Source: a virus
Strand: one strand, 5' to 3'
Virus record (IMG/VR): IMGVR_UViG_3300020411_003715
Span: 64,001 to 128,000 of that record
Length of the DNA: 64,000 nucleotides
Shown here: positions 26,739 through 50,632 of the stretch, piece by piece
Position numbering within the stretch: the first letter of the stretch is position 1
How the letters are laid out: each line of letters opens with the position of its first letter
Notes under the pieces: model-generated
What the model saw: the letters and a program-made list of their open reading frames with translations, nothing else
Databases searched by the model: none
Told to the model about the DNA's origin: nothing
Translations under genes and position numbers: made by a program

Positions 26739-26753
26739 ATAGCAGGAGGAAGC

Positions 26754-31354: not shown

Positions 31355-31755
31355 GAGTAGATAAGAACACAGCGGGTATTATTATCGCCCTAATAACTTC
31401 AGTTGCTGGCTTAGGCACAGCGCTCATAAATCACTACTCCACCAACGAGGGTGCTGTAGTAGAGAGTGAGAAGAAGAACCGTAAGGGCTACAATGCCACC
31501 CGAAGATCTATTGTGAAGGTCGCAGAGGACGTGGACGCAAATGCAAAGCGTATCGATATGCTTGAGAACCACATCATACTTCAAGACCAAACCATCAGGG
31601 CTCTTCTCAGTGGAAGGGTGCTTACGTCTGATCCTCCTCCGGTTCCAAAAGACTTGACTGCTGATAGGAAGCGGCGGAAGAAACGACCATCTACAAGAAA
31701 ACGTGCTGAGCCACCGAGTTATGACGTGACACAGTCTCAGGGAGGCGGAAACTAA
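31351..31755 (+). CDS. Membrane-anchored coiled-coil protein
   Basis: N-terminal TM AGIIIALITSVAGLGTALI, coiled coil, basic tail. Confidence 0.75.
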   Translation: MRVDKNTAGIIIALITSVAGLGTALINHYSTNEGAVVESEKKNRKGYNATRRSIVKVAEDVDANAKRIDMLENHIILQDQTIRALLSGRVLTSDPPPVPKDLTADRKRRKKRPSTRKRAEPPSYDVTQSQGGGN

Positions 31756-32111
31756 TGAGTATGGACGTAAAGGAAAGAGGCTTCGGGGCATACTTCAGCA
31801 CCCTTGACGCGCTATTCAAGAGAATGGGGCGACAGTCCGATGAAGTAGAAGATCACATCCAGAGCGATGCTGATGGTCTGGCTGAGTACAGTAGCACGGG
31901 CCCGGGCTATAATGAGATTACGACATTCTACAAGTTTGATGCCGGTGGTCACCACGTCAGGTTCTTAAACCTTGTTTCTCCTGATATTCTCTTAGTTCAC
32001 CAATCTAAGATGGTTGGCTTTTATCAGGTTATGGGTGGTCGTGAAGAGGTAAGAAATGTCCAACGGGATGTTAAAGACCTCATCGTAAAAGACGTCAATA
32101 TGAAGGTTTGA
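31755..32111 (+). CDS. Hypothetical protein
   Basis: TAATG overlap; 118 aa. Confidence 0.75.
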   Translation: MSMDVKERGFGAYFSTLDALFKRMGRQSDEVEDHIQSDADGLAEYSSTGPGYNEITTFYKFDAGGHHVRFLNLVSPDILLVHQSKMVGFYQVMGGREEVRNVQRDVKDLIVKDVNMKV

Positions 32112-32134
32112 GCCTTATCTTTGTGGAGCGGCGT

Positions 32135-33385: not shown

Positions 33386-33389
33386 TAGT

Positions 33390-34064
33390 TTGAGTAGTCC
33401 CGAACAATATAACGCGAATCAGATGGATATGGGCAGATTTACAGACGCCCAGGTCACACACCTCGTTGAATTCTGGCAAGAGCACAGAGGATTAACCGTT
33501 GACGGATATTGCGGACCCCAAACGCAAAGGGACCTTTTGCAGGACATGTTTGGTAACAGCGCTGTTCCTAGTAATCTAGGTCTTATGGCACTGGAGGTGG
33601 CAATCACGGAGATCGGTAATGGTGAATTGGGCGTTAACAATGCTGGGGATCATGTTGCTCGCTATTTTGGAGTCAGCGAAGACCGTGGCAGCTCTGCTAT
33701 TGGCTCTTGGTGCGCTGCTTTTGTTGGGTATTGTTGTGAGCGTGCAGCAGGTGACCTCGGTATTGAGTTACCCTTTCAAAGATCCGGCGGAGCGAAAGCT
33801 ACTTATAAAAGAGTGGGAGAGGCGGGACAATTTATTGAGGTAAGTGAGGCCCTTCCGGGAGACGTTGTCTGTTGGGATCGAGGCAAGCTTCTTCCCAACG
33901 GACAACCCTCTTGGCAGGGTCATATAGGCTTTGTTGAAAAGCTACAAGAGGGTATTCTTTATACTATTGAGGGGAACGTTGGACGTTTCCCGTCAAAAGT
34001 TAGACGGTTTATGCACGATATAGACAAAGAACCCAGACTCATTGGGTGCGCGAGGTTGCCATGA
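33390..34064 (+). CDS. PG-binding + CHAP/NlpC-P60 peptidoglycan hydrolase
   Basis: FWQEHRGLTVDGYCGPQT; WCAAFV, PGDVVCW, GHIGFV, TIEGN. Confidence 0.88.
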   Translation: MSSPEQYNANQMDMGRFTDAQVTHLVEFWQEHRGLTVDGYCGPQTQRDLLQDMFGNSAVPSNLGLMALEVAITEIGNGELGVNNAGDHVARYFGVSEDRGSSAIGSWCAAFVGYCCERAAGDLGIELPFQRSGGAKATYKRVGEAGQFIEVSEALPGDVVCWDRGKLLPNGQPSWQGHIGFVEKLQEGILYTIEGNVGRFPSKVRRFMHDIDKEPRLIGCARLP

Positions 34065-34783
34065 ACGCTTTGGAAAAATACGCAGCTAATAAGAAGCTCG
34101 CCACCCTGCTCAAGGAAGCGAAGATCGAGAAACTGGCCTGGGAGTCAGCAGACCCAGAAATCTCTGGCGACAAGCTGTTGATGGTCTTTAGAGGCTCAAA
34201 CCCAAAAACCATGACCATGGCTAAAGCCCGTGGGCTAAAGCCCGCTTTTGATGAAGAGCTTGGCGGTGGGTATAAGGCTTCACAAGAGATAACCGACCCG
34301 GCAAGAAAGAAAGAGATCTTAGCCGACCTCGTAAGAAAGCAAAAGAAAGCGAAGGACAGGCGCAGCGGGATCTTCGGAAGAAGGCCGTGGATCGGGAAAA
34401 AAAGAAAAAAGCGTTATGACTTTGAATCCGCACACTTAGATAAACTCACTGCCATGGCGGATAAGATGAAGAGTGCCGCCGCTAAAAAGAAACCGACCAA
34501 GAAGGTAGAACTTGAGCCGGACAGGCTGCGCAGGGCAATGGCCGGAGGAATGCTAGGCGGTGGTGCCGCGCTTCCAGCGGCCACCTTGTCCGCCCTGATT
34601 ACCAGAAACCCGCAGTTCCTCAAGGACATTGCCAAAGGGACCGCGAAAGGTGTAGGGGCAGGAGCGCTTTTGGGGCAAGCCTTCCCGATCATGAAGGGGA
34701 AGGACGATGGTCCAATGCGGCTGGTAAGAGAGACCAAGGGGCCTCGCAAAGGGAAGCTGGTCTTTGCCAGGGAAAACGAATAG
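34061..34783 (+). CDS. MNALEKYAA-leader protein 1 (Gly-zipper cargo)
   Basis: Leader at an ATGA overlap; GGMLGGG and GVGAGALLG segments. Confidence 0.85.
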   Translation: MNALEKYAANKKLATLLKEAKIEKLAWESADPEISGDKLLMVFRGSNPKTMTMAKARGLKPAFDEELGGGYKASQEITDPARKKEILADLVRKQKKAKDRRSGIFGRRPWIGKKRKKRYDFESAHLDKLTAMADKMKSAAAKKKPTKKVELEPDRLRRAMAGGMLGGGAALPAATLSALITRNPQFLKDIAKGTAKGVGAGALLGQAFPIMKGKDDGPMRLVRETKGPRKGKLVFARENE

Positions 34784-34785
34784 AT

Positions 34786-35214
34786 ATGAACGTACTAGAA
34801 AAATACGCGGCAAAGCGGCTTCTCATTAAGAAGTTAGCCTCAGCCAACCCGTTTCAGGTTAGCGCCTCGCATACTAGTAACCCGGCATTGAGTTGGCAAA
34901 AGCGGGATCGCCCAACCACAGGCGTCCGAAGGGCTCTACATAAGACAGAGGGTGCCACCGATAATCTCTTACGGCATGCTTACAGTAAAAATGCACCTTC
35001 AGGCGCACGACAAAGACCGCAGTCGAGCACTAATTTGAATGTAAAAACGGGCCCAATAAGCTTTGGCGGATCACTTAGAGGCGGCAAGATCTCCGGATAC
35101 AAAGTGGGACTGAGCGGGAACCTCACCAAAAACCTAAGCGGAAGAGCGTCAGTCAACGTGCCAGTTGGCGGGGGAAGCCCTAGATACTCAGCGGGCCTTA
35201 ATTGGAGATTTTAA
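34786..35214 (+). CDS. MNALEKYAA-leader protein 2 (beta-strand cargo ending YSAGLNWRF)
   Basis: MNVLEKYAAKRLLIKKLA leader; alternating-pattern C-terminal strands. Confidence 0.85.
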   Translation: MNVLEKYAAKRLLIKKLASANPFQVSASHTSNPALSWQKRDRPTTGVRRALHKTEGATDNLLRHAYSKNAPSGARQRPQSSTNLNVKTGPISFGGSLRGGKISGYKVGLSGNLTKNLSGRASVNVPVGGGSPRYSAGLNWRF

Positions 35215-35215
35215 T

Positions 35216-35548
35216 ATGAACGAACTAGAAAAATACGCAGCCAAGCGCAAGCTTGCCGCTGAGTTAATTAAGCGGGCCTATCTTGCTCGGATTGCGCAGG
35301 GCCTCAAGCACTTTGCAACGGGCGCTAGAACGCAAGCTAGAAAGGCGAGGAAATTCTTTATGGGTGGCGTGAGGTCTGGAAAGTACCGCCATAGTATGTG
35401 GAGCGCAAACCCCCTCCAACGGGCCGCGTACAATACTGGGAGAGCTTTGGGAAGAGGCGTCCCTGCAATAGGAAGAGGAGTCAATAGGGTGGGAACGCGA
35501 CTCAAGGACTATGGCAGTAGACTTATAGGAAGAGGAAGAATCGTATAA
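35216..35548 (+). CDS. MNALEKYAA-leader protein 3
   Basis: MNELEKYAAKRKLAAELIKRA; Arg/Gly-rich cargo. Confidence 0.85.
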   Translation: MNELEKYAAKRKLAAELIKRAYLARIAQGLKHFATGARTQARKARKFFMGGVRSGKYRHSMWSANPLQRAAYNTGRALGRGVPAIGRGVNRVGTRLKDYGSRLIGRGRIV

Positions 35549-36156
35549 TGAATGCTTTAGAGAAATACGCCGCCATGGGTAACTCACCCTTTACACGCCA
35601 GATGCTCAGCGGGAGCGGTCTCCCTGGTTACTCCAAGGGCGGGCCTGTGAAGAAAGATGGTTACCTGACTGACAAGAAGGGCAAGCCATACGCTCGTGTA
35701 CACAAGGGCGAGAAAGTAGTACCTCAAAAGAAAAAGGAAGCCTCAACCATGAATGCTTTAGAAAAGTATGCTGCTAAGCGAAAGCTTATTAGCGAACTCA
35801 CCAAGCAAGCTTGGCTACTCCAGGGCGGTAAGGCGCTTGCCACGAAAGCCTGGGGAGCAGCAAAGCCAGTCCTCTCGGCAATCGGAAAGCCTGTTAAACA
35901 AGTTGCAACCCTCCCAGGCCGAGTAGCTAACCGCCTCGCAAAGCCAGTGGGGCAATGGGCTAAACGTAACCCCAAAAAAGCGATAGCAATGGGGGGAACG
36001 GGCATGGGTGCCATGATCTCCGATGAGATGACGGACTGGACAGGCAAGAAAAGACGTGCGGATGCCAGAAGGGCTGCAAGGTGGGCCAAGCAGTCAACTG
36101 GCGCGGGCCAGAGAACTGGCACCTTCGTCCGAAGCACCCTCAATAAAAATAATTAG
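35548..36156 (+). CDS. MNALEKYAA-leader protein 4 (two in-frame leaders; internal start 35749)
   Basis: Leader at 35548 and again at 35749 after AAGGAAG. Confidence 0.85.
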   Translation: MNALEKYAAMGNSPFTRQMLSGSGLPGYSKGGPVKKDGYLTDKKGKPYARVHKGEKVVPQKKKEASTMNALEKYAAKRKLISELTKQAWLLQGGKALATKAWGAAKPVLSAIGKPVKQVATLPGRVANRLAKPVGQWAKRNPKKAIAMGGTGMGAMISDEMTDWTGKKRRADARRAARWAKQSTGAGQRTGTFVRSTLNKNN

Positions 36157-36166
36157 GGGTGACTCT

Positions 36167-36547
36167 ATGAGCCCATTGGAAAAATATGCAGCTAAGAAGC
36201 TTCTTATTACGAAGCTTGCGTCGAATGCCCTTAGGCTCGGAAAGAAGAAGGCTGTCCGTGTTATGGAGGCGATCACCAAAAGAAGTAAGTCCGTCAAAGA
36301 GACTCGTGAAGCCATGCCTACCGCCATGCGGAAAGTGCTGGGCAAAGAGAAGATCGTCAAGAACCTAGCTGAGCTTCCTCGGGAAGTAGCGAGGACCGCC
36401 AGGAAGATAGAGAATAAACTCGGGCCAAACAAGGGGCTGGAATATGCATTTGCTCAGCTAGCTAAAGGTACGAAGCACCCAAGCTTTAGAGGCAAAGCGA
36501 AGTCCGGCCCTGATTGGAACAAACGACCCAAGAAGAGATCAGTATGA
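36167..36547 (+). CDS. MNALEKYAA-leader protein 5
   Basis: MSPLEKYAAKKLLITKLA; AGGGG RBS; Lys-rich. Confidence 0.85.
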   Translation: MSPLEKYAAKKLLITKLASNALRLGKKKAVRVMEAITKRSKSVKETREAMPTAMRKVLGKEKIVKNLAELPREVARTARKIENKLGPNKGLEYAFAQLAKGTKHPSFRGKAKSGPDWNKRPKKRSV

Positions 36548-36834
36548 ACGCACTAGAGAAGTACGCGGCGAAGCGAAAGCTGGCTGGCCACCTTGGCGCG
36601 GCTATGGGCATGAACGAAGACGCACATATGTTGTGCAAGATTCTTGACACCACTGCTGCGCAAGCGATTGCGCTTAAAAAGAAGATCGCCATGGGCAAGA
36701 GGCTTCCGTCCTGGGCGGAGTACAAGGTGTACAAGGCGGGGGACGCTATTAAGTCCGCATACTCTTCTACGTATTCGATGGCCGACCACGCACCAAAGAT
36801 AAGCATAATGATTGGTGGCCGTAGGCCTTATTAA
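36544..36834 (+). CDS. MNALEKYAA-leader protein 6
   Basis: ATGA overlap; cargo contains LPSWAEYKVYKAGDAI. Confidence 0.85.
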   Translation: MNALEKYAAKRKLAGHLGAAMGMNEDAHMLCKILDTTAAQAIALKKKIAMGKRLPSWAEYKVYKAGDAIKSAYSSTYSMADHAPKISIMIGGRRPY

Positions 36835-36850
36835 ACTTAAAGGAAAGGTT

Positions 36851-37318
36851 ATGAACGCACTAGAAAAATATGCAGCTAAGCGGAAGCTTACTGAAGAATT
36901 AACCAAGCGGGCAGCCCTTCTCCCAGGATTCGTTGCTGGAGGGAAGGCAGTGCTTCACGGGATCAAGGGCGCACTGGGTCGAGCCGGCGGGGCGGTTAAG
37001 CGTACTGGCAGGGCCGCGTGGCAGGGTGTTCAAAAGGCTGACAAGGCAGTAGAGCGCGGCCTCCAGCGCGTTCTGGACCGCACTCCTGGCACTAGCTCGA
37101 ATAAGGCGATGAAAGCCATCAAGGCAAATCAAGCTCAGGCTAAGGCCAAGTTCGTCAACATGAGAGCCGCTACCGGCAGGAGATTCACCGCTGCCAGTAA
37201 TGCGCGCAGGGGTGAGGGCATGCGAAACTTCGCCACTAACAAAGGGGTCCATAGTGTCTTAAAGAGAACTGGGCCATCCCCGGGCACCCGGCTACTGAAT
37301 AAGAAGATAGTTACATAA
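36851..37318 (+). CDS. MNALEKYAA-leader protein 7
   Basis: AAGGAAAGG RBS; MNALEKYAAKRKLTEELTKRA. Confidence 0.85.
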   Translation: MNALEKYAAKRKLTEELTKRAALLPGFVAGGKAVLHGIKGALGRAGGAVKRTGRAAWQGVQKADKAVERGLQRVLDRTPGTSSNKAMKAIKANQAQAKAKFVNMRAATGRRFTAASNARRGEGMRNFATNKGVHSVLKRTGPSPGTRLLNKKIVT

Positions 37319-37335
37319 TGTAGGGGGTTGCTGGG

Positions 37336-38310
37336 ATGGCGTACAACTATAGCAAGGGCGAACAAGCCAGCGGGGACATCAGGTCGGAGGACGACCCGGA
37401 CACCAAGGTTGACTTTGGGTCTGATCGTATAAATCTGGTTGTCGGTGGCTCTGCTAAATTAGCAACCTATTCTCAAGGCGTCCTTCTAGACGGCATGATG
37501 GGGATCGGGGAGGCAAACTCCATACCCACGCCCATCAGCAATTGTGGACAGGTGTTCGCCCTTGATGCTGGGGACAAGGACACTGCGTTGCTTTTTAAGT
37601 TCGAGGGATCTGAGGCCTACCTCACGGACTATAGCAAGTTCGCCACGAACGCTTGGCTCATGGGGTCTTCCGCGACCACGTCTACTTCGGTGTACAAGTG
37701 GGGATCTCGCTCACTAAGACTTCAGCAGAGCAACGCCTCTTATGGGGATTATGACCGTGTTAGCGTGCCGCACACCTACTTCAACCCCAGGTACGAGTCG
37801 TTTACTGTTGAGTGTTGGCTGTACGCAACATCGAACCCAGGCTCAGGAGATGTAGCGACTATAGCCACGCAAGCAAACGAAGACAGTAATTGGGCGTTTG
37901 TCTTGTCTTCTTCGGGAAGACTTGCCATCGGAATCGCCGGTGGATCGACATGGCTCGCCACGTCCGGGACGATTACCCTTAATCAGTGGTGCCACGTTGC
38001 CGCCGTACATGATATTAATTGGTCGAACAACACGTTTACAACGTCTATATACATAGACGGAACCCAGAGCGCGACATCTGCTGAGTCTGGGACGACATCT
38101 TACTGGTCAAGCACGGAGAATCCTTTGGTCATAGGGTACATGAATGATGGCTCTGACCACTCACCCCTTGAAGGGTACATAGATGATTTCCGGGTTAGCA
38201 CCACTGCGAGGTACAGCGGTTCCTCGTTTTCGGTACCGACCAGCTCCTTAGGGGGGACGACCGCTATGTTTGCGCAATCTGCCAACGGGGAGATGCGGAG
38301 AATTAGTTAA
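37336..38310 (+). CDS. LamG/concanavalin-A-like lectin domain virion protein
   Basis: FTVECWLY, QWCHVAAV, LVIG, GYIDDFRVSTTARY. Confidence 0.85.
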   Translation: MAYNYSKGEQASGDIRSEDDPDTKVDFGSDRINLVVGGSAKLATYSQGVLLDGMMGIGEANSIPTPISNCGQVFALDAGDKDTALLFKFEGSEAYLTDYSKFATNAWLMGSSATTSTSVYKWGSRSLRLQQSNASYGDYDRVSVPHTYFNPRYESFTVECWLYATSNPGSGDVATIATQANEDSNWAFVLSSSGRLAIGIAGGSTWLATSGTITLNQWCHVAAVHDINWSNNTFTTSIYIDGTQSATSAESGTTSYWSSTENPLVIGYMNDGSDHSPLEGYIDDFRVSTTARYSGSSFSVPTSSLGGTTAMFAQSANGEMRRIS

Positions 38311-38414
38311 CGTGGGCGTGCACAGATGAATTACCGCTTAATATCTGAGGTACCTCATCTGGCACGTACGACATATAATACTTTTAGGCTTTTTGGATAG
38401 AGTGAGGACTAAAA

Positions 38415-39053
38415 ATGAATTTATTAGACAAGACCATATGGGGGACGCTCCTTGAGAAGGTCGCCAATACTGTTGCCGAAGGAACCGTTGGCTCTTCGAT
38501 GAAGCCTGCGGCCGTCCAACAAGCTTCGCCCACGCCTGGGCCTGCCCCAAACCCGCAAGCTTCGCCCACGCCTCTGGTCAGACCCAATCCACAAGCCTCA
38601 CCCACACCTGGGACCGGGAGCGGCCCGAGTATACCGGGACTCAAAGACCCAAAAGCATACTTAGATGCCATGAGAAAGCTTAAGAGCCAGCACAACACGG
38701 CAACCCCAGAGGGGCAGCAGGCATACCAAGCGGCTTGGAAGAGAACCCAGAAAGCCTTTGGCCTTTCCACAAACCCACAAGAGTTTGGTGCAGGTTTGGT
38801 GCAGCAGAGTCCTGATCTAGCAAAACGATTAGAGCAGTCAAAGGGAGGAGCAGAGTGGAGCAAAAACAATCCCTTCCTAAAAGCTAAAGGAAACCAGCAA
38901 GGGGGGAGTAGCGCTTCTACATCTGGCAACCCCATGACCGTGGCGAGACCCCTAAGGAAAACCGCTCCAACGGCCAATCCAGCAGCGGGCTTTAAACCAC
39001 CTAAGCTTAAGCTACCTAAGTTGCCTAGTGTAACTAACCTTCAGCCTAAATAA
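38415..39053 (+). CDS. KxA-motif protein, Pro/Gln-rich
   Basis: MNLLDK...LLEKVA leader variant. Confidence 0.8.
   Translation: MNLLDKTIWGTLLEKVANTVAEGTVGSSMKPAAVQQASPTPGPAPNPQASPTPLVRPNPQASPTPGTGSGPSIPGLKDPKAYLDAMRKLKSQHNTATPEGQQAYQAAWKRTQKAFGLSTNPQEFGAGLVQQSPDLAKRLEQSKGGAEWSKNNPFLKAKGNQQGGSSASTSGNPMTVARPLRKTAPTANPAAGFKPPKLKLPKLPSVTNLQPK
38520..38612 (+). repeat. 36-nt / 12-aa tandem repeat (QASPTP...PNP) x2.5
   Basis: caagc(t/c)tc(g/a)cccac recurs three times with a 36-nt period. Confidence 0.8.
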
Positions 39054-39069
39054 GGGGTTTGGCTGAACA

Positions 39070-39603
39070 ATGCCTTCTAAAGAGCAAATACATCGGCTTG
39101 CCGATAAGCTAAACATACCCTGGGACAATGACCCCTCTTTCAAGTCATGGTCCAAGAGGGTCACTGGGAAAGCGCATCTTGACAACATGACTCCCGAAGA
39201 GCTTAGCAGGCTGAAGAAAGCCCTAGCCAAGAGAAGGGCGAAGAAGAAGCTAGCATCGGCTTTTTCCGAGAGTTTGTACAAGGAGGCATCACTCCTTGCA
39301 AAAGCGTTGGCGTTCGTTAAAAAGCTTAAGTCTGCTCCCAAAAAGGTGAAGAGCTTTGCTGGAGGATTACCTAAAGATGAGCTTGCTGTGTTCAATATCG
39401 GGCTTGCCTCACCCCTTCCCGGAGGAAGTATTGCGGGATGGGGAGCGTATAAGGGTGCGAAAGAGGGGATTAAGGCGCTTAAGGACGGTCTCCCATTTTC
39501 AGCCTACAGAAAGTTGAACAAGGCTGTAGCGAAGAGCGATAGAATTAATTTTACCAAAAAGGGTGGCCTTCTTCCGTTGTACCTAGGGATGGGCCGGCAC
39601 TAA
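39070..39603 (+). CDS. KxA-motif basic protein
   Basis: Internal KKLA and YKEA, followed by amphipathic SLLAKALAFVKKL. Confidence 0.8.
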   Translation: MPSKEQIHRLADKLNIPWDNDPSFKSWSKRVTGKAHLDNMTPEELSRLKKALAKRRAKKKLASAFSESLYKEASLLAKALAFVKKLKSAPKKVKSFAGGLPKDELAVFNIGLASPLPGGSIAGWGAYKGAKEGIKALKDGLPFSAYRKLNKAVAKSDRINFTKKGGLLPLYLGMGRH

Positions 39604-39700
39604 CTTGCTCGACAAGTGGAATGGTGAATGTATAATTCACACCCCTGTTGTAATAATGCTATTAGGGGTTAATACTTTAACTGATAATTGGAGGTCTAGA

Positions 39701-39811
39701 ATGAATGAGTATATGTGGGGAGTTGTTACCGGATCTGTTGTAACACCCTTCGCCTGGGTTTGTTTAAAATGGTGTATGGCCAAGCTTAAAGCGGTTCTTG
39801 CTAAGAACTAA
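39701..39811 (+). CDS. Small membrane peptide (36 aa)
   Basis: GGAGG RBS before ATG 39701. Confidence 0.6.
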   Translation: MNEYMWGVVTGSVVTPFAWVCLKWCMAKLKAVLAKN

Positions 39812-39821
39812 GGAGAATAGA

Positions 39822-40001
39822 ATGACACTTCAGATGGCCGTTCAGGCTTTATCGACAAAACTTGGCAGCGCCCTTGAGGACATTGCCAAGTTTGAGGACA
39901 AGGGTAATGACGCTGCTGCTCGAAGAGCGCGTAAAAGCCTTCAAGAGATTGCTGTAGCATGCAAAGAGCTTCGGGCAGCGATTCAGGAAAAGCGTAAGTA
40001 G
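39822..40001 (+). CDS. Histone H1-like (Hc1-family-like) small DNA-binding protein
   Basis: KFEDKGNDAAARRARKSLQEIAVACKELR matches the KGNKAAGTRARK motif; AAGGAG RBS. Confidence 0.75.
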   Translation: MTLQMAVQALSTKLGSALEDIAKFEDKGNDAAARRARKSLQEIAVACKELRAAIQEKRK

Positions 40002-40075
40002 TTTTGGCTAAGTGGGGACATGGGTTTATTTATTCATAGGATTCAAGCCGCACATGGCCTAGGGAGATATAAGGT

Positions 40076-43645: not shown

Positions 43646-43657
43646 GGAGCGCTGATA

Positions 43658-43990
43658 ATGAGACCACTTTTTACTATTTTACTTTTACTCGCCGTTATCC
43701 CTGACTTTGTTGGTTGTGCATCGGATGACTGCCACACCCAAGCAGATCAAGACGCCATGGAAGTGGCGGACGCACTTTCTGATGAAGATGTCGATGCACC
43801 AGACGGCTCTTGGCATGACCAGTACATCGCAGACAATTGCGCAAGATGCCCAGACTGCTGTGTTGATATCGGTGATGCTGACGCAGAAGCCGACGCAGAG
43901 GTTGATGCCGCTGGGGATGCCAATGATTCGGATGCTGGGGTTGATGCGGACGCCGGTGGACCAGATGCGGACGAGGAGGATGCCGAATGA
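43658..43990 (+). CDS. Putative lipoprotein with an Asp/Ala-rich tail
   Basis: Signal ending FVGC; CARCPDCC; DADAEADAEVDA low complexity. Confidence 0.7.
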   Translation: MRPLFTILLLLAVIPDFVGCASDDCHTQADQDAMEVADALSDEDVDAPDGSWHDQYIADNCARCPDCCVDIGDADAEADAEVDAAGDANDSDAGVDADAGGPDADEEDAE

Positions 43991-44373
43991 ACGCTCTAGA
44001 GAAACATGCCAAGAAAAAGGAAAAAGAGAAGGACGCATCAGCCACACTTCCTGCAGAGCAGCTTATCGGGATGCGAGAAGAGATGGAGGACATCTGGAGA
44101 GAAGAGGTTGAGAAGGTAGCGGTGAGCATCCAGAAGGCTTATGAGATTGACAACAAGTCTAAAAACCAGCTTCGGCAAGTGGCGCAGAAAGCCATGAGTA
44201 CCGACCCTTCTGACCCAAAGCTCCAAGCTATCGCCAATCATCCCAACGCTAAAAAAATGGCGGTAGCTGCTGAGAGACTAGGAAGAAAGATCATGTCCCA
44301 AAAAGGGGGCGTGCATAAGCAACTTGCTTCTGGGTACGGAGCCCTTCCGCCAGGAACAAAAGGAATGTCTTGA
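43987..44373 (+). CDS. MNALEK-leader protein 8
   Basis: MNALEKHAKKK...EEVEKVA; ATGA overlap. Confidence 0.8.
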   Translation: MNALEKHAKKKEKEKDASATLPAEQLIGMREEMEDIWREEVEKVAVSIQKAYEIDNKSKNQLRQVAQKAMSTDPSDPKLQAIANHPNAKKMAVAAERLGRKIMSQKGGVHKQLASGYGALPPGTKGMS

Positions 44374-44454
44374 TCGATATTGGCAGACTACTTCGTGTAG
44401 GGCCGCTTACACGATATTATCGTGTAATGGTTGGGGCCAAACACGGAGGATACT

Positions 44455-44595
44455 GTGGCAACAGTGTTGTTTTTATTGGCAGCGATTCTTTTTTTAACTG
44501 CGGAACAAAGGCTGATGGAATCAGAGCTAAAGAGGTCTCAAGAACGATTTCGAGACGAACTGCTCGGAGATAACCCAGACGACGATAGGAGTTAG
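44455..44595 (+). CDS. Small membrane-anchored protein (46 aa, not in track)
   Basis: GGAGG then GTG; MATVLFLLAAILFLTAEQRLMESE... Confidence 0.55.
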   Translation: MATVLFLLAAILFLTAEQRLMESELKRSQERFRDELLGDNPDDDRS

Positions 44596-44597
44596 CG

Positions 44598-46322
44598 ATG
44601 GGCAACAAGGTATGTCTTGTAGAGCCAGATCCCTTCTTAGCTGCAGGGAACACTGTTAGCTCGTTTATTCCTAACTTTGTTTCTGGTGATTTCGATGCGG
44701 AGAAGGCAAAACTAGAGAAGGCGGTGAGCGGGGGCTTCAACATGGCGGACATTCTCAATGTGTCCAGGCCCTTGAATGGTATCGCCGTAAAGCCGAACAC
44801 ACATGCGTTTGTTCAAGTAATTGATGCGAACCAAAGAGTCGTAAAGGTGTTCAACCAGCTTGGTTTCCCAGGAAGCACTGGGCAGTCGGGCGAGTACCTT
44901 GGGGGAAGCTACAACCCTAAAGACTTAATTGAGGCCGATGCCGGGGATGCAAAACTATCTCCCAGATCTGGGGCCGTAAAAGGAAAGGCTGGAAAGACCG
45001 CCAAGTGGCCCTGGGAAACATATAAACAGGGAGTTCCTGGAAACCCTGGCGCGGGAATGGATGACAAGGGAAACCCGGCCTCGCACGCGTGGACGGACTG
45101 GATCCTCCAGCAAGTCAGAGAAGTGCGGGTAGAAAAAACCCAGCTTGTTGAAACCTTTGGGGACAGCTACCTGTATGCCTTTGGTGAGAAGCCAAGAGTA
45201 CTCCAATTCAGTGGCCTCTTAATGAACACAGCGGACTATAACTGGCGGGCTGTGTTCTGGGAAAACTGGGATAACTTCTTCCGGGCGACTAAGCTGGTCC
45301 AGCGTAATGCTAGGATGTATATCGGGTGGGACGATATCCTCGTGGAAGGCTATCCGATCCAGGCAATGGCACAAGAGGCCTCAGACAGCCCCAACGCCCT
45401 CTCCTTCTCCTTCCAATTCTACGTAACAAGTTACAATAATATTTCTATGGCTAATCGGGTATCCGCCCTGCAGGCCAAGAAGCTTCACCGGATCTCAACA
45501 ACCAGATCGATGTGGTCTTCCCAGCCCGTAAAGCAAGCAGAGCTTGGCAACAAAGGCTGGTCCATCATGGACATGGCCCTAGGTAAAGGCGCAGCAGGAA
45601 ATTTTTTCGGTGCACTAAAGCCTGAAGTGTATAACAGTGCCACGGGTAAATGGGAGTATTACGATGTTGAATCTGGAACGTATAAAGACGCGGGATCTCC
45701 AAGCACAAACCCCTTCTCCAAATTGGGTGTTCGCTTAGCGAAGCGGGCTGCAGACATGCTGACAAAGCTACCATTCAAGTTGGCGACCGGAAGATCTGCG
45801 AACCTAACAGCGTTTGTCCAGGCCGGACTTGCCGGAATGGCACTGGATAGCTTTAAGACGGTTGGGGACGTTGCCGTAGAGGGGCTAGAGGATTTCATGG
45901 GTACCAAGCGTGGGGAGGTAAACGCTTGGTTCGGATACATTGGCTCTCTCGCAGACACCGCACTGAGCATCCACAACGGGCGTTGGGATGGGACCCCCAA
46001 TAGCGAGGTTGGGAGTTGGGGTGAGGATATGATGCGGGCCGGGAGCCTTGATGTTATTATCCAAAGGATGGCCTACGCAGCGGTAGGCAAAATAGGAGAC
46101 AGCACGGGCAGATACCGGGATGCCACTACCCTTGTTGAGATAACAGAGGGTAGCAATATGAAGTTTGGCGCGTACCCGGGAGCGGCTGTTGTCGTGAACA
46201 CCGGGGACACTGGGCCAGTTAGCTCCATGGACCTTTCCGCCCTAGGTGACTCCGAGACCTCCTCGGGGGGCCTTGAGGCAGGCGATGAGGTTAAAGAGTG
46301 GTTTGACGAGAACTTTGGGTAG
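44598..46322 (+). CDS. Tail tube-fold / baseplate hub-associated structural protein
   Basis: WILQQVREVRVEKTQLVETFGDSYLYAFGEKPRVLQFSGLL resembles tube/hub initiator folds; sits directly before the hub-like gene. Confidence 0.55.
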   Translation: MGNKVCLVEPDPFLAAGNTVSSFIPNFVSGDFDAEKAKLEKAVSGGFNMADILNVSRPLNGIAVKPNTHAFVQVIDANQRVVKVFNQLGFPGSTGQSGEYLGGSYNPKDLIEADAGDAKLSPRSGAVKGKAGKTAKWPWETYKQGVPGNPGAGMDDKGNPASHAWTDWILQQVREVRVEKTQLVETFGDSYLYAFGEKPRVLQFSGLLMNTADYNWRAVFWENWDNFFRATKLVQRNARMYIGWDDILVEGYPIQAMAQEASDSPNALSFSFQFYVTSYNNISMANRVSALQAKKLHRISTTRSMWSSQPVKQAELGNKGWSIMDMALGKGAAGNFFGALKPEVYNSATGKWEYYDVESGTYKDAGSPSTNPFSKLGVRLAKRAADMLTKLPFKLATGRSANLTAFVQAGLAGMALDSFKTVGDVAVEGLEDFMGTKRGEVNAWFGYIGSLADTALSIHNGRWDGTPNSEVGSWGEDMMRAGSLDVIIQRMAYAAVGKIGDSTGRYRDATTLVEITEGSNMKFGAYPGAAVVVNTGDTGPVSSMDLSALGDSETSSGGLEAGDEVKEWFDENFG

Positions 46323-46333
46323 GATTTATTTCT

Positions 46334-49300
46334 GTGGGTGTTAGCACTGCCATACACGGCCGATTTGTTGGCTGCAGAGTATTCCTTGAGGGGATAGAGG
46401 TCGACGTCGTTCAGGCGACGATAACAGGTGGGGTGAATACTCCCGCTACCGCAGACATCATCATTCCATACAATGATTTTATCCACGAGTTCTTACCAAG
46501 AACCCTGGTCCATGTATTCTTCATGGATAGCCGGTACAGGAAGGGGAAAGAGGTTGACACGGAAAAAACCAAGGACCTTGTCAATGCGATACCCAGACTA
46601 AAGAGCACCAAGGACCTGAGGAAGGCAGCGCTTGCCCTGGACAGAAACGATCCAGACAACTGGAAACTAATGTTTGCTGGCGAGGTGTCGGGGTATTCGT
46701 ACCAGAAGGTCGGAGCATTAAGACAGTGCAAGCTTTCGTGCATGGACTTCAGCTCTTACTTCCAGAACGCAAAGCTATATTGGGGCCGTAGAAACACGAG
46801 TCTCCACAGCTACAAGCAGGCGATTTTTGCGGGAGGCACGCAGCTTTACAGGGGCAAGACGAAGGTTGATAGCTCAAACGACCTTGTTAAGCTTTTGTCA
46901 TCAAAACCCTCACTGAAACCAACTCTTCCGGGTCTACTTGGTGGCCTGTTCTCAACACTTGAGTCCGTAACCGGCGTGTACTCTCCGGACGCCACTAGGA
47001 AGTTCAGGGGAACCAACGATTTCTTAAGTCAGGCGGAGCTTCGGTTAAATATATGTAGCATGCTCGGTGCCTCTGAGAAGGACGACACGACAACAACGTT
47101 TCTCAGGAGTAAATCTTTCAAACGCTACCTAAGGCGAATAACCAGACAACTTAAAAGCACCGCATCCTATTACGATATAATGAACCTGATTCTACAGAAG
47201 TGTTATCAGGTTTGGTCCTCCGTCCCAGCGCCACCGTACATGACGGACCAGAGCGTAGTTGTTAAGTGGAACCAAGTAGTAAACGGGTACAGCTACAAGA
47301 AGGACCCCGCGGTAAAGAAAATCTTTGATGAGACGGCTGAAGTCCATAAGCGCATAGGGACGCACCTACAGGTGGCTATTGACAGGACAGTAGGAAGGTC
47401 CAAAGGGAAGGAGGGGTCTGTACCTGCCGGGACGGACCCAGCCAAACATAAGATTCAGGGCGGTAAGGTTGCTGTTGACACAAAAGAGATCTCAACCACA
47501 GCCACCACGGTTGCCTCAAAAACAAAAGACTGGGGAACTGCGGAGCAGCTTAGGGAAAAAGGGTCACAGCACTACCAGAAACACGGGGTTGGGCCAAAGA
47601 GGACTAGTCGTGCAGCTGCGGCCAAAATTAGGGGGGCATATGGTCACCTTGCTAACGCCAAGGCACATCTGGACAAGATTAAGGCTGACGGGGGCAAAAA
47701 GCAGGACGTCCCTCTTCTAAGAAAGGCATACGCGGAGCTAGAAGCCGCCAAGAAGAAGATGGTTAGAGCCGCAGGCGTTCGAACGAAGCCGATGTCAGAG
47801 ACGTTAAGCACCAACCCCAGGCTACATGCATTCTTGTTCCATCCGGATATCTTCATGTGCCCGCCCCCGAAGTGCAACGTTCTTTTCCCAGACGACATAC
47901 AATCTCTTTCTTTTAGTCGCGGGTGGATGAGCGAGATAACCAGGATATGGCTTCACGGAAGGACATCTTCTGGGAAGGCGAGAAAGAACTGCTATTTCGC
48001 ACCGAACACCTCCATCCTCGGGGCATCAGAAGTTGGCAGCAAAGGCGAGGGCCTTGCGGAGACGGCCATAAAAAAGGGGCATGGATTCTTAATGCCCCAT
48101 GAGAAGTACACAGGTATCAATGGCTCTATCGTTGGTCTAGGGGACAACGCTATCTTCAAGAAGCTACACGTCAAGGGTCTCAAAGAAGCAAAAAAGGTGG
48201 CCAGGGCGGAGGCCAAGAAGATCAAGGGAACCGACGCGGAAGCCAAAGCGAAGAGAAAGAAGCTTGTAACAGATGCAATTAACGACTTTTCTGGGGGAGC
48301 GCAGTTTTCCGCACAGCCGCACCTTCAGAGAGCCGCAAACTATATGTTCTTTGCAAGCAGGTACGGATCTAGAAGCATGTCTGTTACCTGCAGATTCTCA
48401 CCGCACCTTGTGGCGAGCTTACCTTGTTTGGTTCTTGATCCCGATGTCGACCAAGACAGCAGGTTTGTTACGGGGAGGTACTCGACGGCGTTTGCGACGG
48501 AGGGAGACAAAGGGGAGCCATCTTTAGACTCCCGTGGGTTCTCTAAGCGTGCATGGGAACAGGACGCAAGCGGCACGAGGGTAGCGGGAACTAAAGGGAC
48601 GCACTATGTGGGCGTAATTGCTAAGGTGCAGCATACCTTTAACGCGAACGGCGGTGCGCAAACACAAGTAATGTTAACAAAGTGTCGTGAGCACAACGAG
48701 TCCGGAAGCTTCTGGGGAGACGACGACGGTGATGGCGTAATGCATGCCAAGGCTGTCAAAAAGAAGTATTGGCGTCGACGGGTTCGGATGAAGAGCAATG
48801 GCGGAAGCATACACAGCACGGACCATTCAGACTATGACCCTAAAGTGACAGGCAACATTAATGGGAACTTTACAGCAAGAGTGGTCCGAAAGGCTGGTAG
48901 CGCGATTGCGGTTGAGAAGCAAACGCCGGGAGCACTTAAGGCTATCCTAGGAAGCCAGTGGAGAAAAAATCGGAGCTACACCGTTGAGCCCGTCATGGAG
49001 AACGGCCAACCAAAAACAGTTGTTGTCGGGAGCCCCCAAACCTTGGCGGACGGGTCGACCTCCGGATCTGGCAAGGAGTTCATGGCCGTAAAGGTTTATT
49101 CAAGACACTCCAAGAATGTTGTAAAACCTATATCCTTCTCTTTTGAAGCCATTACTACGCCACCATGGTTCGCATCCATCTATCATGCTGGAAAAATAGG
49201 CTCAGAGTATTACGGCCCCATGATTGGCTGTGACTCTGTTGTAGACGGAACACCTCTATCCCTCCATGACCCAGAAGCAACTCTGAAGGAGGGGACAAAG

Positions 49301-49939
49301 ATTAAAGTCTCGACAACGACGATAGACGCCGACACGGGCGACGAAAAAGAGGCTCCTGATCTTGAGATGGAGACATACGTCCTTCCCTTTAAGGTCCAGG
49401 GGGGCTACGAGGAGAGAGAAGTCTTAATCCCTAAGTCTCTTTTTGCTGAGGTTGAAACAACAAAGTCAGCAGCGAACGCTCTTGCGGACATATGGATAGG
49501 GCTGAAGCGGATGGGGGCGGACGTCAATTTATTCATAGACACATATACGTCACGGTCATACGCTAACCTTGTCCAAGTAATGGGCAATAAGAATCCGTAC
49601 CTTAGGTTAAATTACTCTATTGATGACTATGAGACTTCGGCACTACCGATTAGCCCGTTGGGAAAGATAGCCCATACGGGATTCCATGGGTTTGCCTACG
49701 GAAACTACACCGAATTAAAAAATATCGAAAATTACGAGAGGCTTCTGACGGAAGGCAAGAAGGCCTTAAAGGCCATGAACCCCCGAACCGCGAAAAGACC
49801 GTTAAACCCAAAAGTAGACCCAAGGGCCCCCAGATGGTTTGCGGTACACAGGTATCAAAAAGCCATGAAGGCGAAGAGCCGGTCAGGTGGGCAAATCGCG
49901 GAACGACGTAAGCAGGGCGATTTTAACGCGAGATCATAG
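46334..49939 (+). CDS. Baseplate hub-like protein (gp27/gpD-like), 1201 aa
   Basis: RVFLEGIEV...ATADIIIP...LMFAGEV...CMD N-terminus and GVIAKVQHTF...TQVML segment, with large basic insertions. Confidence 0.6.
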   Translation: MGVSTAIHGRFVGCRVFLEGIEVDVVQATITGGVNTPATADIIIPYNDFIHEFLPRTLVHVFFMDSRYRKGKEVDTEKTKDLVNAIPRLKSTKDLRKAALALDRNDPDNWKLMFAGEVSGYSYQKVGALRQCKLSCMDFSSYFQNAKLYWGRRNTSLHSYKQAIFAGGTQLYRGKTKVDSSNDLVKLLSSKPSLKPTLPGLLGGLFSTLESVTGVYSPDATRKFRGTNDFLSQAELRLNICSMLGASEKDDTTTTFLRSKSFKRYLRRITRQLKSTASYYDIMNLILQKCYQVWSSVPAPPYMTDQSVVVKWNQVVNGYSYKKDPAVKKIFDETAEVHKRIGTHLQVAIDRTVGRSKGKEGSVPAGTDPAKHKIQGGKVAVDTKEISTTATTVASKTKDWGTAEQLREKGSQHYQKHGVGPKRTSRAAAAKIRGAYGHLANAKAHLDKIKADGGKKQDVPLLRKAYAELEAAKKKMVRAAGVRTKPMSETLSTNPRLHAFLFHPDIFMCPPPKCNVLFPDDIQSLSFSRGWMSEITRIWLHGRTSSGKARKNCYFAPNTSILGASEVGSKGEGLAETAIKKGHGFLMPHEKYTGINGSIVGLGDNAIFKKLHVKGLKEAKKVARAEAKKIKGTDAEAKAKRKKLVTDAINDFSGGAQFSAQPHLQRAANYMFFASRYGSRSMSVTCRFSPHLVASLPCLVLDPDVDQDSRFVTGRYSTAFATEGDKGEPSLDSRGFSKRAWEQDASGTRVAGTKGTHYVGVIAKVQHTFNANGGAQTQVMLTKCREHNESGSFWGDDDGDGVMHAKAVKKKYWRRRVRMKSNGGSIHSTDHSDYDPKVTGNINGNFTARVVRKAGSAIAVEKQTPGALKAILGSQWRKNRSYTVEPVMENGQPKTVVVGSPQTLADGSTSGSGKEFMAVKVYSRHSKNVVKPISFSFEAITTPPWFASIYHAGKIGSEYYGPMIGCDSVVDGTPLSLHDPEATLKEGTKIKVSTTTIDADTGDEKEAPDLEMETYVLPFKVQGGYEEREVLIPKSLFAEVETTKSAANALADIWIGLKRMGADVNLFIDTYTSRSYANLVQVMGNKNPYLRLNYSIDDYETSALPISPLGKIAHTGFHGFAYGNYTELKNIENYERLLTEGKKALKAMNPRTAKRPLNPKVDPRAPRWFAVHRYQKAMKAKSRSGGQIAERRKQGDFNARS

Positions 49940-49941
49940 AG

Positions 49942-50148
49942 GTGGACAGTATTATGAGTAGTGCTATAGATGACTTTGAGAAAGAATTAGTTAATGATAC
50001 TGTCTCCGAAGATCAAGCGGACGAGGCCATTGCTAAGGATGAACCCATTCCAAACGTAGAAATTTCATTTGGTAAGGGTGCTTCTAGGAAGAACTTGCTC
50101 TGTTCGAGGGGGTTCACGCTTAAAAGTATCTACGATATGTCCAAGTAG
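49942..50148 (+). CDS. Hypothetical protein
   Basis: 68 aa; start may be ATG 49954. Confidence 0.55.
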   Translation: MDSIMSSAIDDFEKELVNDTVSEDQADEAIAKDEPIPNVEISFGKGASRKNLLCSRGFTLKSIYDMSK

Positions 50149-50185
50149 GTAGTTCTTAATAGTATGGATATGTTGCATAATAACC

Positions 50186-50212
50186 ATGACGCTCAGCCTT
50201 TTTTAGCGTCAT
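50186..50212. promoter_or_regulatory. Inverted repeat ATGACGCT-N11-AGCGTCAT
   Basis: Perfect 8-bp arms in the intergenic gap before 50234. Confidence 0.35.
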
Positions 50213-50233
50213 AAAAACTGGAGGATAATTACC

Positions 50234-50632
50234 ATGAATGCATTAGAAAAGCTTGCCGCCAAGCGGCGAATCGCCTCACTACTCGGACAAGAGTTGTTTG
50301 AGGAAACAGGCAAGGAAGCCGGACTTAAAGAGATTGGGAAAGCTCTCAAGGGCTTAATGTCCAAGGCAAAGAAGACCGGAAAGAAGGTCATCGAAAAAGG
50401 AAAGAAGGAAGTTGACGTTATTCGGGCAAAGCCCCAAGAACGACTTCGCGCCAAGTGGAACAAGGGCCCCTTCGTTAAGAAGAAGGTCCAGAACTCCCGA
50501 CAGGCAAACTTGGCCAAAGCAGACAAGCGCACCAAAAAGTCGCGCACACGTGCAGCAGTAGCAGCAGGTGGTGGACTTGCAGGCTTGAGCGCCCTCGGAA
50601 TCGCAACCAAAGGCAACAGCTCGCCTGAGTAA
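50234..50632 (+). CDS. MNALEK-leader protein 9
   Basis: MNALEKLAAKRRIA...GKEA; GGAGG RBS; C-terminal Gly-zipper. Confidence 0.85.
   Translation: MNALEKLAAKRRIASLLGQELFEETGKEAGLKEIGKALKGLMSKAKKTGKKVIEKGKKEVDVIRAKPQERLRAKWNKGPFVKKKVQNSRQANLAKADKRTKKSRTRAAVAAGGGLAGLSALGIATKGNSSPE

What the first reader, a model, noticed from the sequence alone, without database searches (positions are those of the whole stretch)
34061..50632. Leader-cargo array: ten MNALEKYAAKRKL leaders fused to unrelated cargos
Seen: the leader starts ORFs at 34061, 34786, 35216, 35548, 36167, 36544, 36851, 43987 and 50234, and occurs internally at 35749. Seven of these genes are consecutive and most are translationally coupled. 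The codons differ synonymously between copies (e.g. gaaaaatacgcagct, gagaagtacgcggcg, gaaaagtatgctgct), so selection is on the peptide and not on the DNA. Most leaders end in a second K-x-A (KEA, KLA, KRA, KQA), after which the cargos share no evident similarity. Known: T4 internal proteins use a 10-aa N-terminal capsid-targeting sequence removed by the prohead protease gp21. Inference: this is a portable capsid-targeting/maturation signal with K-x-A cleavage specificity (rather than the Glu of T4/phiKZ) that loads a diverse payload into the virion. It could be usable as a packaging tag.
Basis: partly seen in the sequence, partly recalled or inferred. Interest (0 to 1): 0.92.

Follow-up and report, generated by a model that had tools for sequence, protein, structure and literature searches.

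The report
Shared leader peptide on phage head-cargo proteins
An uncultured 180-kb marine phage puts the same 13-21-residue N-terminal peptide on a dozen small, very basic, otherwise dissimilar proteins, and the peptide's core (hydrophobic-Glu-Lys-x-Ala) recurs in the phage's head-assembly proteins, so it is most likely a "load into the capsid and trim" tag like the one known from phage T4, written in a different code.

Summary
All ten MNALEKYAAKRKL-type leaders are at the stated coordinates, and the 180,106-bp phage contig holds two more. Invariant residues use all synonymous codons, so selection acts on the peptide. The parts after the leader show no detectable similarity (best BLASTP E 0.26). 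They are not a diverse payload, though: all are small, basic (pI 9.4-12) and low in complexity.

The leader core [LIVMF]-E-K-x-A is enriched tenfold in structural-module ORFs only (25 against 2.4 expected). It lies mostly near N-termini. It keeps its position in head-module homologues of related phages.

The phage's head protease has the T4 gp21/herpesvirus assemblin fold (Z 10.0). Across 81 diverse homologues, near-invariant h-x-K-x-A-[S/A/G] sites flank its catalytic domain.

Best reading (about 0.55): the leader is a capsid-targeting and maturation propeptide on internal head proteins. It is a new variant of the T4 capsid-targeting sequence system.

No cleavage or packaging has been measured.

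This scan has found T4-type (h-x-E) leaders on other phage DNA before, but not this leader.

The parts
32108..33385 (+). 425-aa ORF just upstream of the array. Its likely start (Met10, about 32135) reads MSVDIEKLARKW, an N-terminal hEKxA variant of the leader.
33390..34064 (+). CHAP peptidoglycan hydrolase with a weak PG_binding_1 match. Its stop overlaps the first leader gene by 4 nt. It carries no leader.
   Evidence: PF05257 E 1.1e-08; PHROG endolysin and tail-lysozyme families
34061..34783 (+). Leader gene 1 (240 aa): MNALEKYAANKKLATLLKEAKIEKLA, i.e. leader, then LLKEA, then a second full IEKLA.
34786..35214 (+). Leader gene 2 (142 aa): MNVLEKYAAKRLLIKKLA. Cargo pI 11.8.
35216..35548 (+). 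Leader gene 3 (110 aa): MNELEKYAAKRKLAAELIKRA. Cargo pI 12.0.
35548..36156 (+). Leader gene 4 (202 aa) with two leaders. The first is at the start. The second is at 35749, with its own purine-rich SD, so it is either a natural two-unit fusion or an internal start. The first unit's cargo is the only one with a clear orthologue in a relative (88% over 42 aa).
36167..36547 (+). Leader gene 5 (126 aa): MSPLEKYAAKKLLITKLA. Cargo is 30% K+R.
36544..36834 (+). Leader gene 6 (96 aa): MNALEKYAAKRKLAGHL. It overlaps the previous gene by 4 nt.
36851..37318 (+). Leader gene 7 (155 aa): MNALEKYAAKRKLTEELTKRA. Cargo pI 12.0.
38415..39053 (+). 212-aa ORF starting MNLLDKTIWGTLLEKVA: a degenerate leader-like start followed by a true hEKxA at residue 13.
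43987..44373 (+). Divergent leader gene (128 aa): MNALEKHAKKKEKEKDA. It overlaps the stop of the acidic ORF 43658-43990.
50234..50632 (+). Leader gene (132 aa): MNALEKLAAKRRIASLL. Cargo is 27% K+R.
50659..51606 (+). 315-aa basic ORF with tandem sites FLTKQAAMEKVAAYK at residues about 20-31. It looks like a longer N-terminal propeptide carrying the same motif.
57081..57914 (+). 277-aa ORF with LEKVA at residue 35 and FEKVA at residue 54.

Best explanation
The 13-21-residue leader has the consensus M-N-A-L-E-K-Y-A-A-K-[KR]-K-L-x-x-x-L. It is often followed by a second h-x-K-x-A. I read it as an N-terminal propeptide that marks small basic proteins as head-internal proteins of this phage.

Its core, hydrophobic-Glu-Lys-x-Ala followed by a small residue, is the lineage's head-maturation motif. 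The same motif occurs:
- four times in the acidic scaffold-like protein next to the protease;
- near the N-termini of several other virion proteins;
- on both sides of the catalytic domain of the prohead protease itself.

Proposed mechanism: the leader brings the protein into the assembling procapsid core. The gp21/assemblin-fold protease (genome 21370-23055, invariant H104 and S160) then cuts at the motif. The cut is probably after the Ala, as herpesvirus assemblins cut at h-x-A|S. This releases the basic cargo to stay with the DNA and possibly be ejected with it.

Shown: the leader, peptide-level selection, motif enrichment and positional conservation, and the protease fold. Inferred: recognition by the protease, the cut position, packaging and ejection.
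For: 1. Peptide-level selection and portability. Invariant residues use all synonymous codons. The same leader heads 33 further distinct proteins in related IMG/VR and marine metagenome contigs. Only one of this phage's cargos has an orthologue there. There are no hits in 185,579 prokaryote genomes.

2. Motif statistics.
- [LIVMF]EK.A: 25 in 71 structural-module ORFs against 2.4 +/- 1.7 on shuffling, and 4 against 2.4 in the other 127 ORFs.
- h.K.A[SAGT]: 49 against 14.8, compared with 11 against 9.3 in the other ORFs.
- Controls hERxA, hDKxA, hEKx[^A] and the reversed motif are not enriched.

3. N-terminal bias. 18 of 25 sites lie in the first 60 residues (6.6 expected). Without the canonical leaders the count is 11 of 16 (3.5 expected).

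4. Positional conservation. The sites are kept in homologous head-module proteins of phages whose proteases are 62-79% identical, while the flanks vary. In one relative the 19085-like protein starts MNELEKQAAK.

5. Protease.
- PHROG head maturation protease, E 5e-12.
- AF2 model pLDDT 85.
- Best structural matches are T4 gp21 5JBL (Z 10.0, rmsd 2.7 over 130 residues) followed by about 35 herpesvirus protease entries.
- H104 and S160 are invariant in 81 homologues.
- L-x-K-x-A-[SAG] at residues 27-32 has K in 79/81 and A in 78/81, and lies in a segment with pLDDT below 50.
- [MLI]-x-K-[VLI]-A-S at residues 227-232 has K in 76/81 and A in 73/81.
- Both sites are also present in phage G gp19, and phage G's portal has MAKQAA at residue 16.
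- The layout parallels the herpesvirus R-site (PrV YLQA-T226; PMC4498786) and the motif-conforming N-terminus of T4 gp21 (PMC9026906).

6. Cultured relative. In Salmonella phage Arash, 11 of 12 annotated CDS with hEKxA are virion proteins by LC-MS or annotation, against 116 of 272 overall. The exception sits just before the capsid gene, where a scaffold protein would be expected (PMC10585845).

7. The cargos are small and basic, like the T4 internal proteins (PMC9026906).
Against: - There is no proteomic, expression or cleavage evidence for this uncultured phage.
- The motif starts at residue 4. A cut at the first site would remove only 5-8 residues, and the second site is absent in about a third of leaders.
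- Residues 225-231 of the protease are modelled as a beta-strand that aligns with core strands of herpesvirus proteases. Conservation of that site may therefore be structural rather than a sign of autoprocessing.
- In the scaffold-like protein the motif opens a repeated unit of about 30 residues. That would also fit a binding element.
- The capsid protein has only KEKIA, inside an N-terminus that is conserved throughout, so nothing can be read from it.
- The Arash mass-spectrometry list holds 43% of all genes, so it discriminates weakly.
- The array lies next to a CHAP hydrolase and tail/baseplate-region genes, about 70 kb from the head genes.
Confidence: 0.55

Rival explanations
1. Docking motif without cleavage. 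The amphipathic leader helix and the other hEKxA segments are a short linear motif that binds a common head component: the scaffold core, the inner face of the capsid protein, the portal, or the protease as a receptor. The leader stays on the mature protein. This resembles encapsulin cargo-loading peptides or the capsid-binding helices of scaffolding proteins.
For: The leader looks strongly helical, with conserved L4, L13 and L17. In the scaffold-like proteins the motif starts repeated units that look like helix-turn-helix elements. The protease ends in a near-motif, G[ML]EKLLAKID, at its extreme C-terminus in close relatives. Motifs placed at the very ends of proteins suit docking better than trimming of a few residues.
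Against: The strong N-terminal bias, with upstream segments of variable length and no conservation (3-135 residues), is the pattern of removable propeptides seen in T4, phiKZ and SPN3US (PMC10052503). Tandem sites suggest redundancy of cleavage. The small residues conserved at and after the Ala fit a protease subsite. The protease C-terminal near-motif is not conserved across the family.
Confidence: 0.2
2. An expanded paralogous family of small basic proteins whose conserved N-terminal helix works in the mature protein outside capsid assembly. Possible roles are nucleic-acid binding or a membrane-active, lysis- or entry-associated function next to the CHAP hydrolase. The array would be ordinary tandem duplication with fast divergence.
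For: The genes are tandem and coupled. All cargos share one compositional class. The array follows a CHAP hydrolase.
Against: This does not explain the same motif, positionally conserved, in acidic scaffold-like and other head-module proteins and in the protease. It also does not explain enrichment restricted to structural-module ORFs. By eye, the cargos contain no hydrophobic membrane-spanning stretch.
Confidence: 0.12
3. The invariant Lys of h-E-K-x-A is the acceptor site for the phage-encoded ubiquitin-like conjugation operon (Ubl-E2-JAB-E1), so the leader is a modification tag.
For: The Lys is invariant (45 of 45). A ThiF-type E1 is present in this genome, in three complete relatives and in Arash, so it co-occurs with the motif everywhere tested. 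Another shared phage tag in this scan turned out to be linked to a modifying enzyme (e1-127136).
Against: Co-occurrence across five related genomes is uninformative. The motif distribution (N-terminal bias, scaffold, both flanks of the protease domain, also in phage G gp19) tracks the protease family. No consensus-directed Ubl conjugation is known for such operons (my own knowledge).
Confidence: 0.05
4. The repeat is a DNA- or RNA-level element, such as a recombination cassette junction or a translation-initiation module, and not a peptide signal.
For: It always sits at gene starts in a tightly packed array.
Against: Synonymous codons are fully scrambled at invariant residues. The upstream sequences differ. 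The motif also occurs inside ORFs.
Confidence: 0.02

Closest known systems
Phage T4 capsid targeting sequence (CTS) on internal proteins IPI/IPII/IPIII and Alt, removed by prohead protease gp21 (PMC9026906)
   Same: A short N-terminal peptide is shared by small, basic, otherwise dissimilar and fast-evolving proteins. The genome encodes a protease with the gp21 fold. The protease-related motif also occurs in scaffold-type proteins and near the protease's own N-terminus.
   Different: There is no sequence similarity to MKTYQEFIAE. The conserved unit is h-E-K-x-A plus a small residue, not (L/I)-x-E. The motif lies at residues 4-8 with an optional second copy at about 14-22. The phage is not T4-like: it has a fused beta/beta' RNA polymerase, a sigma factor, and Salmonella phage Arash as nearest cultured relative. 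Targeting and cleavage are untested.
Propeptide processing in phiKZ, 201phi2-1 and SPN3US giant phages (motif S/A/G-x-E; PMC10052503, PMC9026906)
   Same: Many virion proteins carry N-terminal propeptides of very different lengths. Sites are multiple and redundant. The virion is rich in internal and ejected proteins; in the relative Arash the RNA polymerase subunits are among the most abundant virion proteins (PMC10585845).
   Different: The motif is different. Those phages have no uniform short leader heading a tandem gene array.
Herpesvirus assemblin with its R and M sites (h-x-A|S/T; PMC4498786)
   Same: The protease fold matches (Z 7-8.9). A small Ala followed by Ser, Ala or Gly is conserved in the motif. 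A conserved site lies right after the catalytic domain at about residue 226-232, followed by a long C-terminal extension.
   Different: The extra Lys (and in this phage Glu) determinant is not part of the herpesvirus consensus. Cleavage here is only inferred. The post-domain site may be a structural strand.
Encapsulin cargo-loading peptides
   Same: A short portable peptide is thought to direct unrelated proteins into an HK97-fold shell.
   Different: Encapsulin peptides are usually C-terminal and Gly/Ser/Leu-rich, and they are not coupled to a protease (my own knowledge). There is no sequence resemblance.

Membership tests
T4-type capsid targeting sequence / internal protein system | Short N-terminal peptide shared by otherwise dissimilar small basic proteins of one phage | tested here: met
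   12 copies in the genome. Cargo BLASTP best E 0.26. Cargo pI 9.4-12.
T4-type capsid targeting sequence / internal protein system | Peptide ends in the gp21 cleavage motif (L/I)-x-E | tested here: not met
   The only invariant Glu is residue 5, preceded by A-L. No conserved h-x-E closes the leader. An analogous but different motif (h-x-K-x-A) is proposed.
T4-type capsid targeting sequence / internal protein system | Sequence similarity of the leader to the T4 CTS (MKTYQEFIAE) | tested here: not met
   Judged by inspection of the consensus MNALEKYAAK[KR]KL. The T4 sequence is quoted from earlier notes of this scan and my own knowledge.
T4-type capsid targeting sequence / internal protein system | Prohead protease of the gp21 type encoded in the same genome | tested here: met
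   Genome 21370-23055. PHROG 18299 E 5e-12. Fold match to 5JBL Z 10.0, rmsd 2.7, 130 residues.
T4-type capsid targeting sequence / internal protein system | Tagged proteins are packaged in the head, processed and ejected, and the tag suffices to package foreign proteins | not testable with these tools
   Uncultured phage. The only support is indirect, from Arash virion LC-MS (PMC10585845).
gp21 / assemblin-fold prohead serine proteases (for the enzyme proposed to read the leader) | Assemblin/gp21 fold with conserved His and Ser | tested here: met
   The top 37 structural matches are all gp21 or herpesvirus proteases. H104 and S160 are invariant in 81 sequences. A catalytic role was not tested.
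gp21 / assemblin-fold prohead serine proteases (for the enzyme proposed to read the leader) | Match to Pfam Peptidase_S77 (PF03420) | tested here: not met
   No match at E <= 10 in the whole genome. The PDB sequence searches gave no relevant hit either. The relationship is visible at fold level only.
Herpesvirus-type cleavage rule (h-x-A|S) | P1 Ala and P1' small residue at conserved sites, including one just after the catalytic domain | tested here: inconclusive
   The family logos show A at 78/81 and 73/81 followed by S/A/G. No cleavage data exist, and the second site is modelled as a strand.
Encapsulin cargo-loading peptide | C-terminal (or defined N-terminal) Gly/Ser/Leu-rich peptide binding an encapsulin shell, with no protease | tested here: not met
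   The leader is N-terminal, Lys/Ala-rich and associated with a tailed-phage head module that has a protease. Binding itself was not tested.

The most novel reading that the evidence does not exclude
h-x-K-x-A-(S/A/G) is the substrate code of a large, uncharacterised clade of gp21/assemblin-fold prohead proteases: 3,406 clusters at 50% identity match at E <= 0.001. These enzymes cut after Ala as herpesvirus assemblins do, and free themselves at both ends of the catalytic domain. On this reading the 13-21-residue MNALEKYAAK leader is a self-sufficient, transferable tag for loading into the capsid and then releasing the protein. It would let the injected proteome of these marine phages and their relatives, including Salmonella phage Arash, be predicted from sequence.
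Probability: 0.35. Interest if true: 0.7.

Novelty: new variant of a known kind. Interest (0 to 1): 0.58.

Why it matters
If correct, the T4 principle of a capsid-targeting tag exists in an unrelated phage lineage with a different peptide code.

It would also give a sequence rule (h-x-K-x-A plus a small residue) for predicting processed and packaged virion proteins across a protease family that is abundant in metagenomes but has no described specificity that I could find.

It would offer a second, orthogonal short tag for loading foreign proteins into phage heads.

The herpesvirus-like Ala-plus-small-residue site on a gp21-like enzyme would add a concrete link between phage and herpesvirus capsid maturation.

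If the motif proves to be docking-only, it would be a phage counterpart of encapsulin cargo-loading peptides. That would also be new.

Tried and rejected
- Complex prediction of protease residues 34-224 with the 40-residue leader gave no verdict (score 0.01, below the mark). It counts neither for nor against binding.
- The first protease fold, from a 7-sequence alignment, was unusable (pLDDT 45). It was repeated with 81 sequences.
- Foldseek alone gave only weak E-values (best 1.6e-3). The VIA-align second look settled the fold.
- Sequence searches gave nothing relevant: protease against PDB sequences, single and profile, and Pfam S77 on the genome.
- Pfam on ten leader proteins gave no significant domain. 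Pfam and PHROGs left most neighbouring large ORFs unnamed.
- The search for related loci with the Laminin_G_3 protein that flanks the array found no relative, so array synteny in relatives was not compared.
- ORF 9248-11239 against the Arash portal, and ORF 18000-19088 against Arash gp218, showed no similarity. The portal of this phage remains unassigned.
- I looked for an experimentally mapped cleavage site in a cultured member of the protease family. The phage G paper gives none. The T5 papers are not held. Salmonella phage Sen-NF did not look T5-like from the six annotated genes around the match. Bxz1 gp95 lacks the post-domain site.
- The DNA-level repeat explanation is rejected on codon evidence.
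- Host mimicry or prophage origin is not supported: the leader pattern has no hit in prokaryote genomes.

Full report
**What the DNA is.** The window is bases 64001-128000 of a single 180,106-bp virus contig. The contig encodes:
- a fused beta/beta' multisubunit RNA polymerase (genome 890-7159);
- a large terminase (16260-17990);
- a head maturation protease (ORF 21277-23055, true start MLKLL at 21370);
- acidic scaffold-like proteins (23149-23757 and 24006-24794);
- a major capsid protein (25764-26957);
- a sheath-like giant protein (30745-35169).

The window holds a second structural block with a CHAP hydrolase, a Laminin_G_3 protein, Big_9/FN3 and baseplate-like proteins, and a sigma factor.

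The nearest cultured relatives are distant. They are Salmonella phage Arash (capsid 37%, protease 33-41% identity) and three Vibrio phages. Closer uncultured relatives are IMG/VR contigs of 173-181 kb with terminal repeats, and marine metagenome contigs.

**Observation.** The genome has two more, at 13879 and 37084. Seven consecutive, tightly coupled genes (window 34061-37318) carry eight leaders.

At the invariant residues every synonymous codon is used: four Leu codons at L4 and four Ala codons at A8. Selection therefore acts on the peptide.

The parts after residue 21 show no significant pairwise similarity (best E 0.26). All of them are basic (pI 9.4-12, K+R 15-30%, G+A 17-30%) and have no Pfam domain. 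"Unrelated cargos" is therefore true for homology but not for kind.

**The leader across relatives.** A back-translated pattern finds the leader only in this phage group: 9 IMG/VR stretches, 18 metagenome stretches, and none in 185,579 prokaryote genomes. Complete relatives have 4-7 copies against 0 for a reversed control. This phage, with 12, has the largest set seen.

Relatives supply 33 further distinct leader proteins. Again all are basic. Only one of this phage's cargos has an orthologue among them. The leader is fixed while the rest turns over quickly.

The consensus of 45 leaders is M-N-A-L-E-K-Y-A-A-K-[KR]-K-L-x-x-x-L, with M1, E5, K6 and A8 invariant.

**The key step: the leader core is not private to the leader.** [LIVMF]-E-K-x-A occurs 29 times in 198 called ORFs against 4.8 +/- 2.1 after shuffling.

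| Motif | Structural-module ORFs: observed / expected | Other ORFs: observed / expected |
|---|---|---|
| hEKxA | 25 / 2.4 | 4 / 2.4 |
| h-x-K-x-A-[SAGT] | 49 / 14.8 | 11 / 9.3 |
| bare K-x-A | 222 / 187 | 142 / 118 |

The controls hERxA, hDKxA, hEKx-not-A and the reversed motif are not enriched.

The non-leader sites are:
- four in the acidic scaffold-like protein;
- one in the next acidic protein;
- sites near the N-termini of ORFs 9248 (LFEKVAAKFLL at residue 12) and 19085 (residue 11), and of window ORFs 32108, 38415, 50659 and 57081.

Sites are biased towards N-termini: 18 of 25 lie in the first 60 residues against 6.6 expected. Without the canonical leaders the count is 11 of 16 against 3.5 expected.

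In head modules of relatives the sites keep their positions while the flanks change. One homologue of ORF 19085 starts MNELEKQAAK, a leader-like start. The leader's "second K-x-A" is a degenerate, sometimes complete, second copy of the same unit.

**The protease.** A search of 1.84 billion representatives finds 3,406 clusters at E <= 0.001. With 81 of them the catalytic domain folds at pLDDT 85. It matches T4 gp21 best (Z 10.0, rmsd 2.7 over 130 residues), followed by herpesvirus proteases (Z up to 8.9). H104 and S160 are invariant.

Two motif copies flank the domain in nearly all homologues:
- [LFM]-x-K-x-A-[SAG] at residues 27-32, in a segment with pLDDT below 50;
- [MLI]-x-K-[VLI]-A-S at residues 227-232.

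Arash and phage G gp19 also have both sites.

A nearly invariant pentapeptide inside a disordered segment points to a linear recognition motif. In these sites the Glu position varies while Lys and Ala do not. This argues against a T4-like cut after Glu. It is compatible with a cut next to the Ala, as in herpesvirus R and M sites (YLQA-T226 and VQA-S488 in PrV; PMC4498786). This is inference. The 225-231 segment is modelled as a strand and may be conserved for structural reasons.

**Link to virions.** The only experimental link comes from the relative. In Arash, 11 of 12 annotated genes with hEKxA are virion proteins by LC-MS or annotation, against 116 of 272 overall. The exception lies just before the capsid gene, where a scaffold protein would be expected (PMC10585845). 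Arash virions also hold the RNA polymerase subunits in high amounts, so this lineage packs many proteins. The Arash list is broad, and Arash lacks the MNALEKYAAK array, so this is weak support.

**Interpretation.** The pattern matches what is known for T4 and the phiKZ/SPN3US group: a short motif read by the prohead protease, repeated in scaffold proteins, present in N-terminal propeptides of many head proteins and near the protease's own ends, and, in T4, a 10-residue targeting sequence shared by small basic internal proteins (PMC9026906, PMC10052503).

I therefore take the leader to be a targeting-and-maturation propeptide of internal head proteins (confidence about 0.55).

The main rival is the same motif acting as a docking element without cleavage (0.2). 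Lesser rivals are:
- a paralogous family with a function unrelated to the capsid (0.12);
- a Ubl-conjugation site (0.05). The E1 gene is present in all five related genomes tested, so this cannot be excluded;
- a DNA-level element (0.02), contradicted.

**Novelty.** This is a new variant of a known kind. This scan has already reported T4-type h-x-E leaders on other phage DNA, but it found no look-alike of this stretch. What is new here is the code (h-E-K-x-A), the non-T4 lineage, the size of the tandem array, and the tie to a large uncharacterised protease clade whose own conserved sites predict its specificity.

Noticed in passing
window 43658-43990 (+): 110-aa ORF with a lipoprotein-like signal (MRPLFTILLLLAVIPDFVGC) followed by an extremely Asp/Ala-rich acidic tail. 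Its stop overlaps the start of leader gene 43987.
   Followed up: no
window 35575-35748 (cargo of the first leader in ORF 35548-36156): The segment GNSPFTRQ...GGPVKKDGYLTDKKGKPYARVHKGEKVVP is 88% identical to part of a leader protein in relative G001 (L048). It is the only cargo conserved between phages, so it is likely a functional module of unknown role.
   Followed up: partly
genome 13189-14178 (outside the window, L001): Three repeats of NPYxGKxxASGxKGLxTMxxLSG[VI]KHA[SA] precede an internal leader. A similar KG[LV]STMxSLS unit occurs in ORF 19750-20661. This is a second recurrent peptide in head-region proteins.
   Followed up: no
genome 890-7159 (L001) and window 51621-52514: The RNA polymerase beta and beta' are fused into one 2,089-aa protein, and a sigma-factor gene lies inside the structural block. 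In the relative Arash the polymerase subunits are among the most abundant virion proteins (PMC10585845), which suggests a packaged polymerase.
   Followed up: partly
genome 46512-47024 (-), and G001, G002, G003, Arash: A ThiF-type E1 (part of the Ubl-E2-JAB-E1 operon noted by other readers) is present in this phage, three complete relatives and Salmonella phage Arash.
   Followed up: partly
genome 21370-23055 (protease): Invariant C170, C173 and C184, with H175 and H186 conserved among close relatives, lie inside the protease domain and may form a metal site. A C-terminal extension of about 330 residues is conserved among close relatives.
   Followed up: no
window 39070-39603 (+): 177-aa ORF (PHROG 286) with an internal leader-like stretch, LKKALAKRRAKKKLASAFSESLYKEA, at about residues 47-72.
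   Followed up: no
genome 1-60 and 180047-180106: Both contig ends consist of tandem GCAGCAGGGGGCGCA-type repeats. This may be a terminal repeat or an assembly artefact.
   Followed up: no
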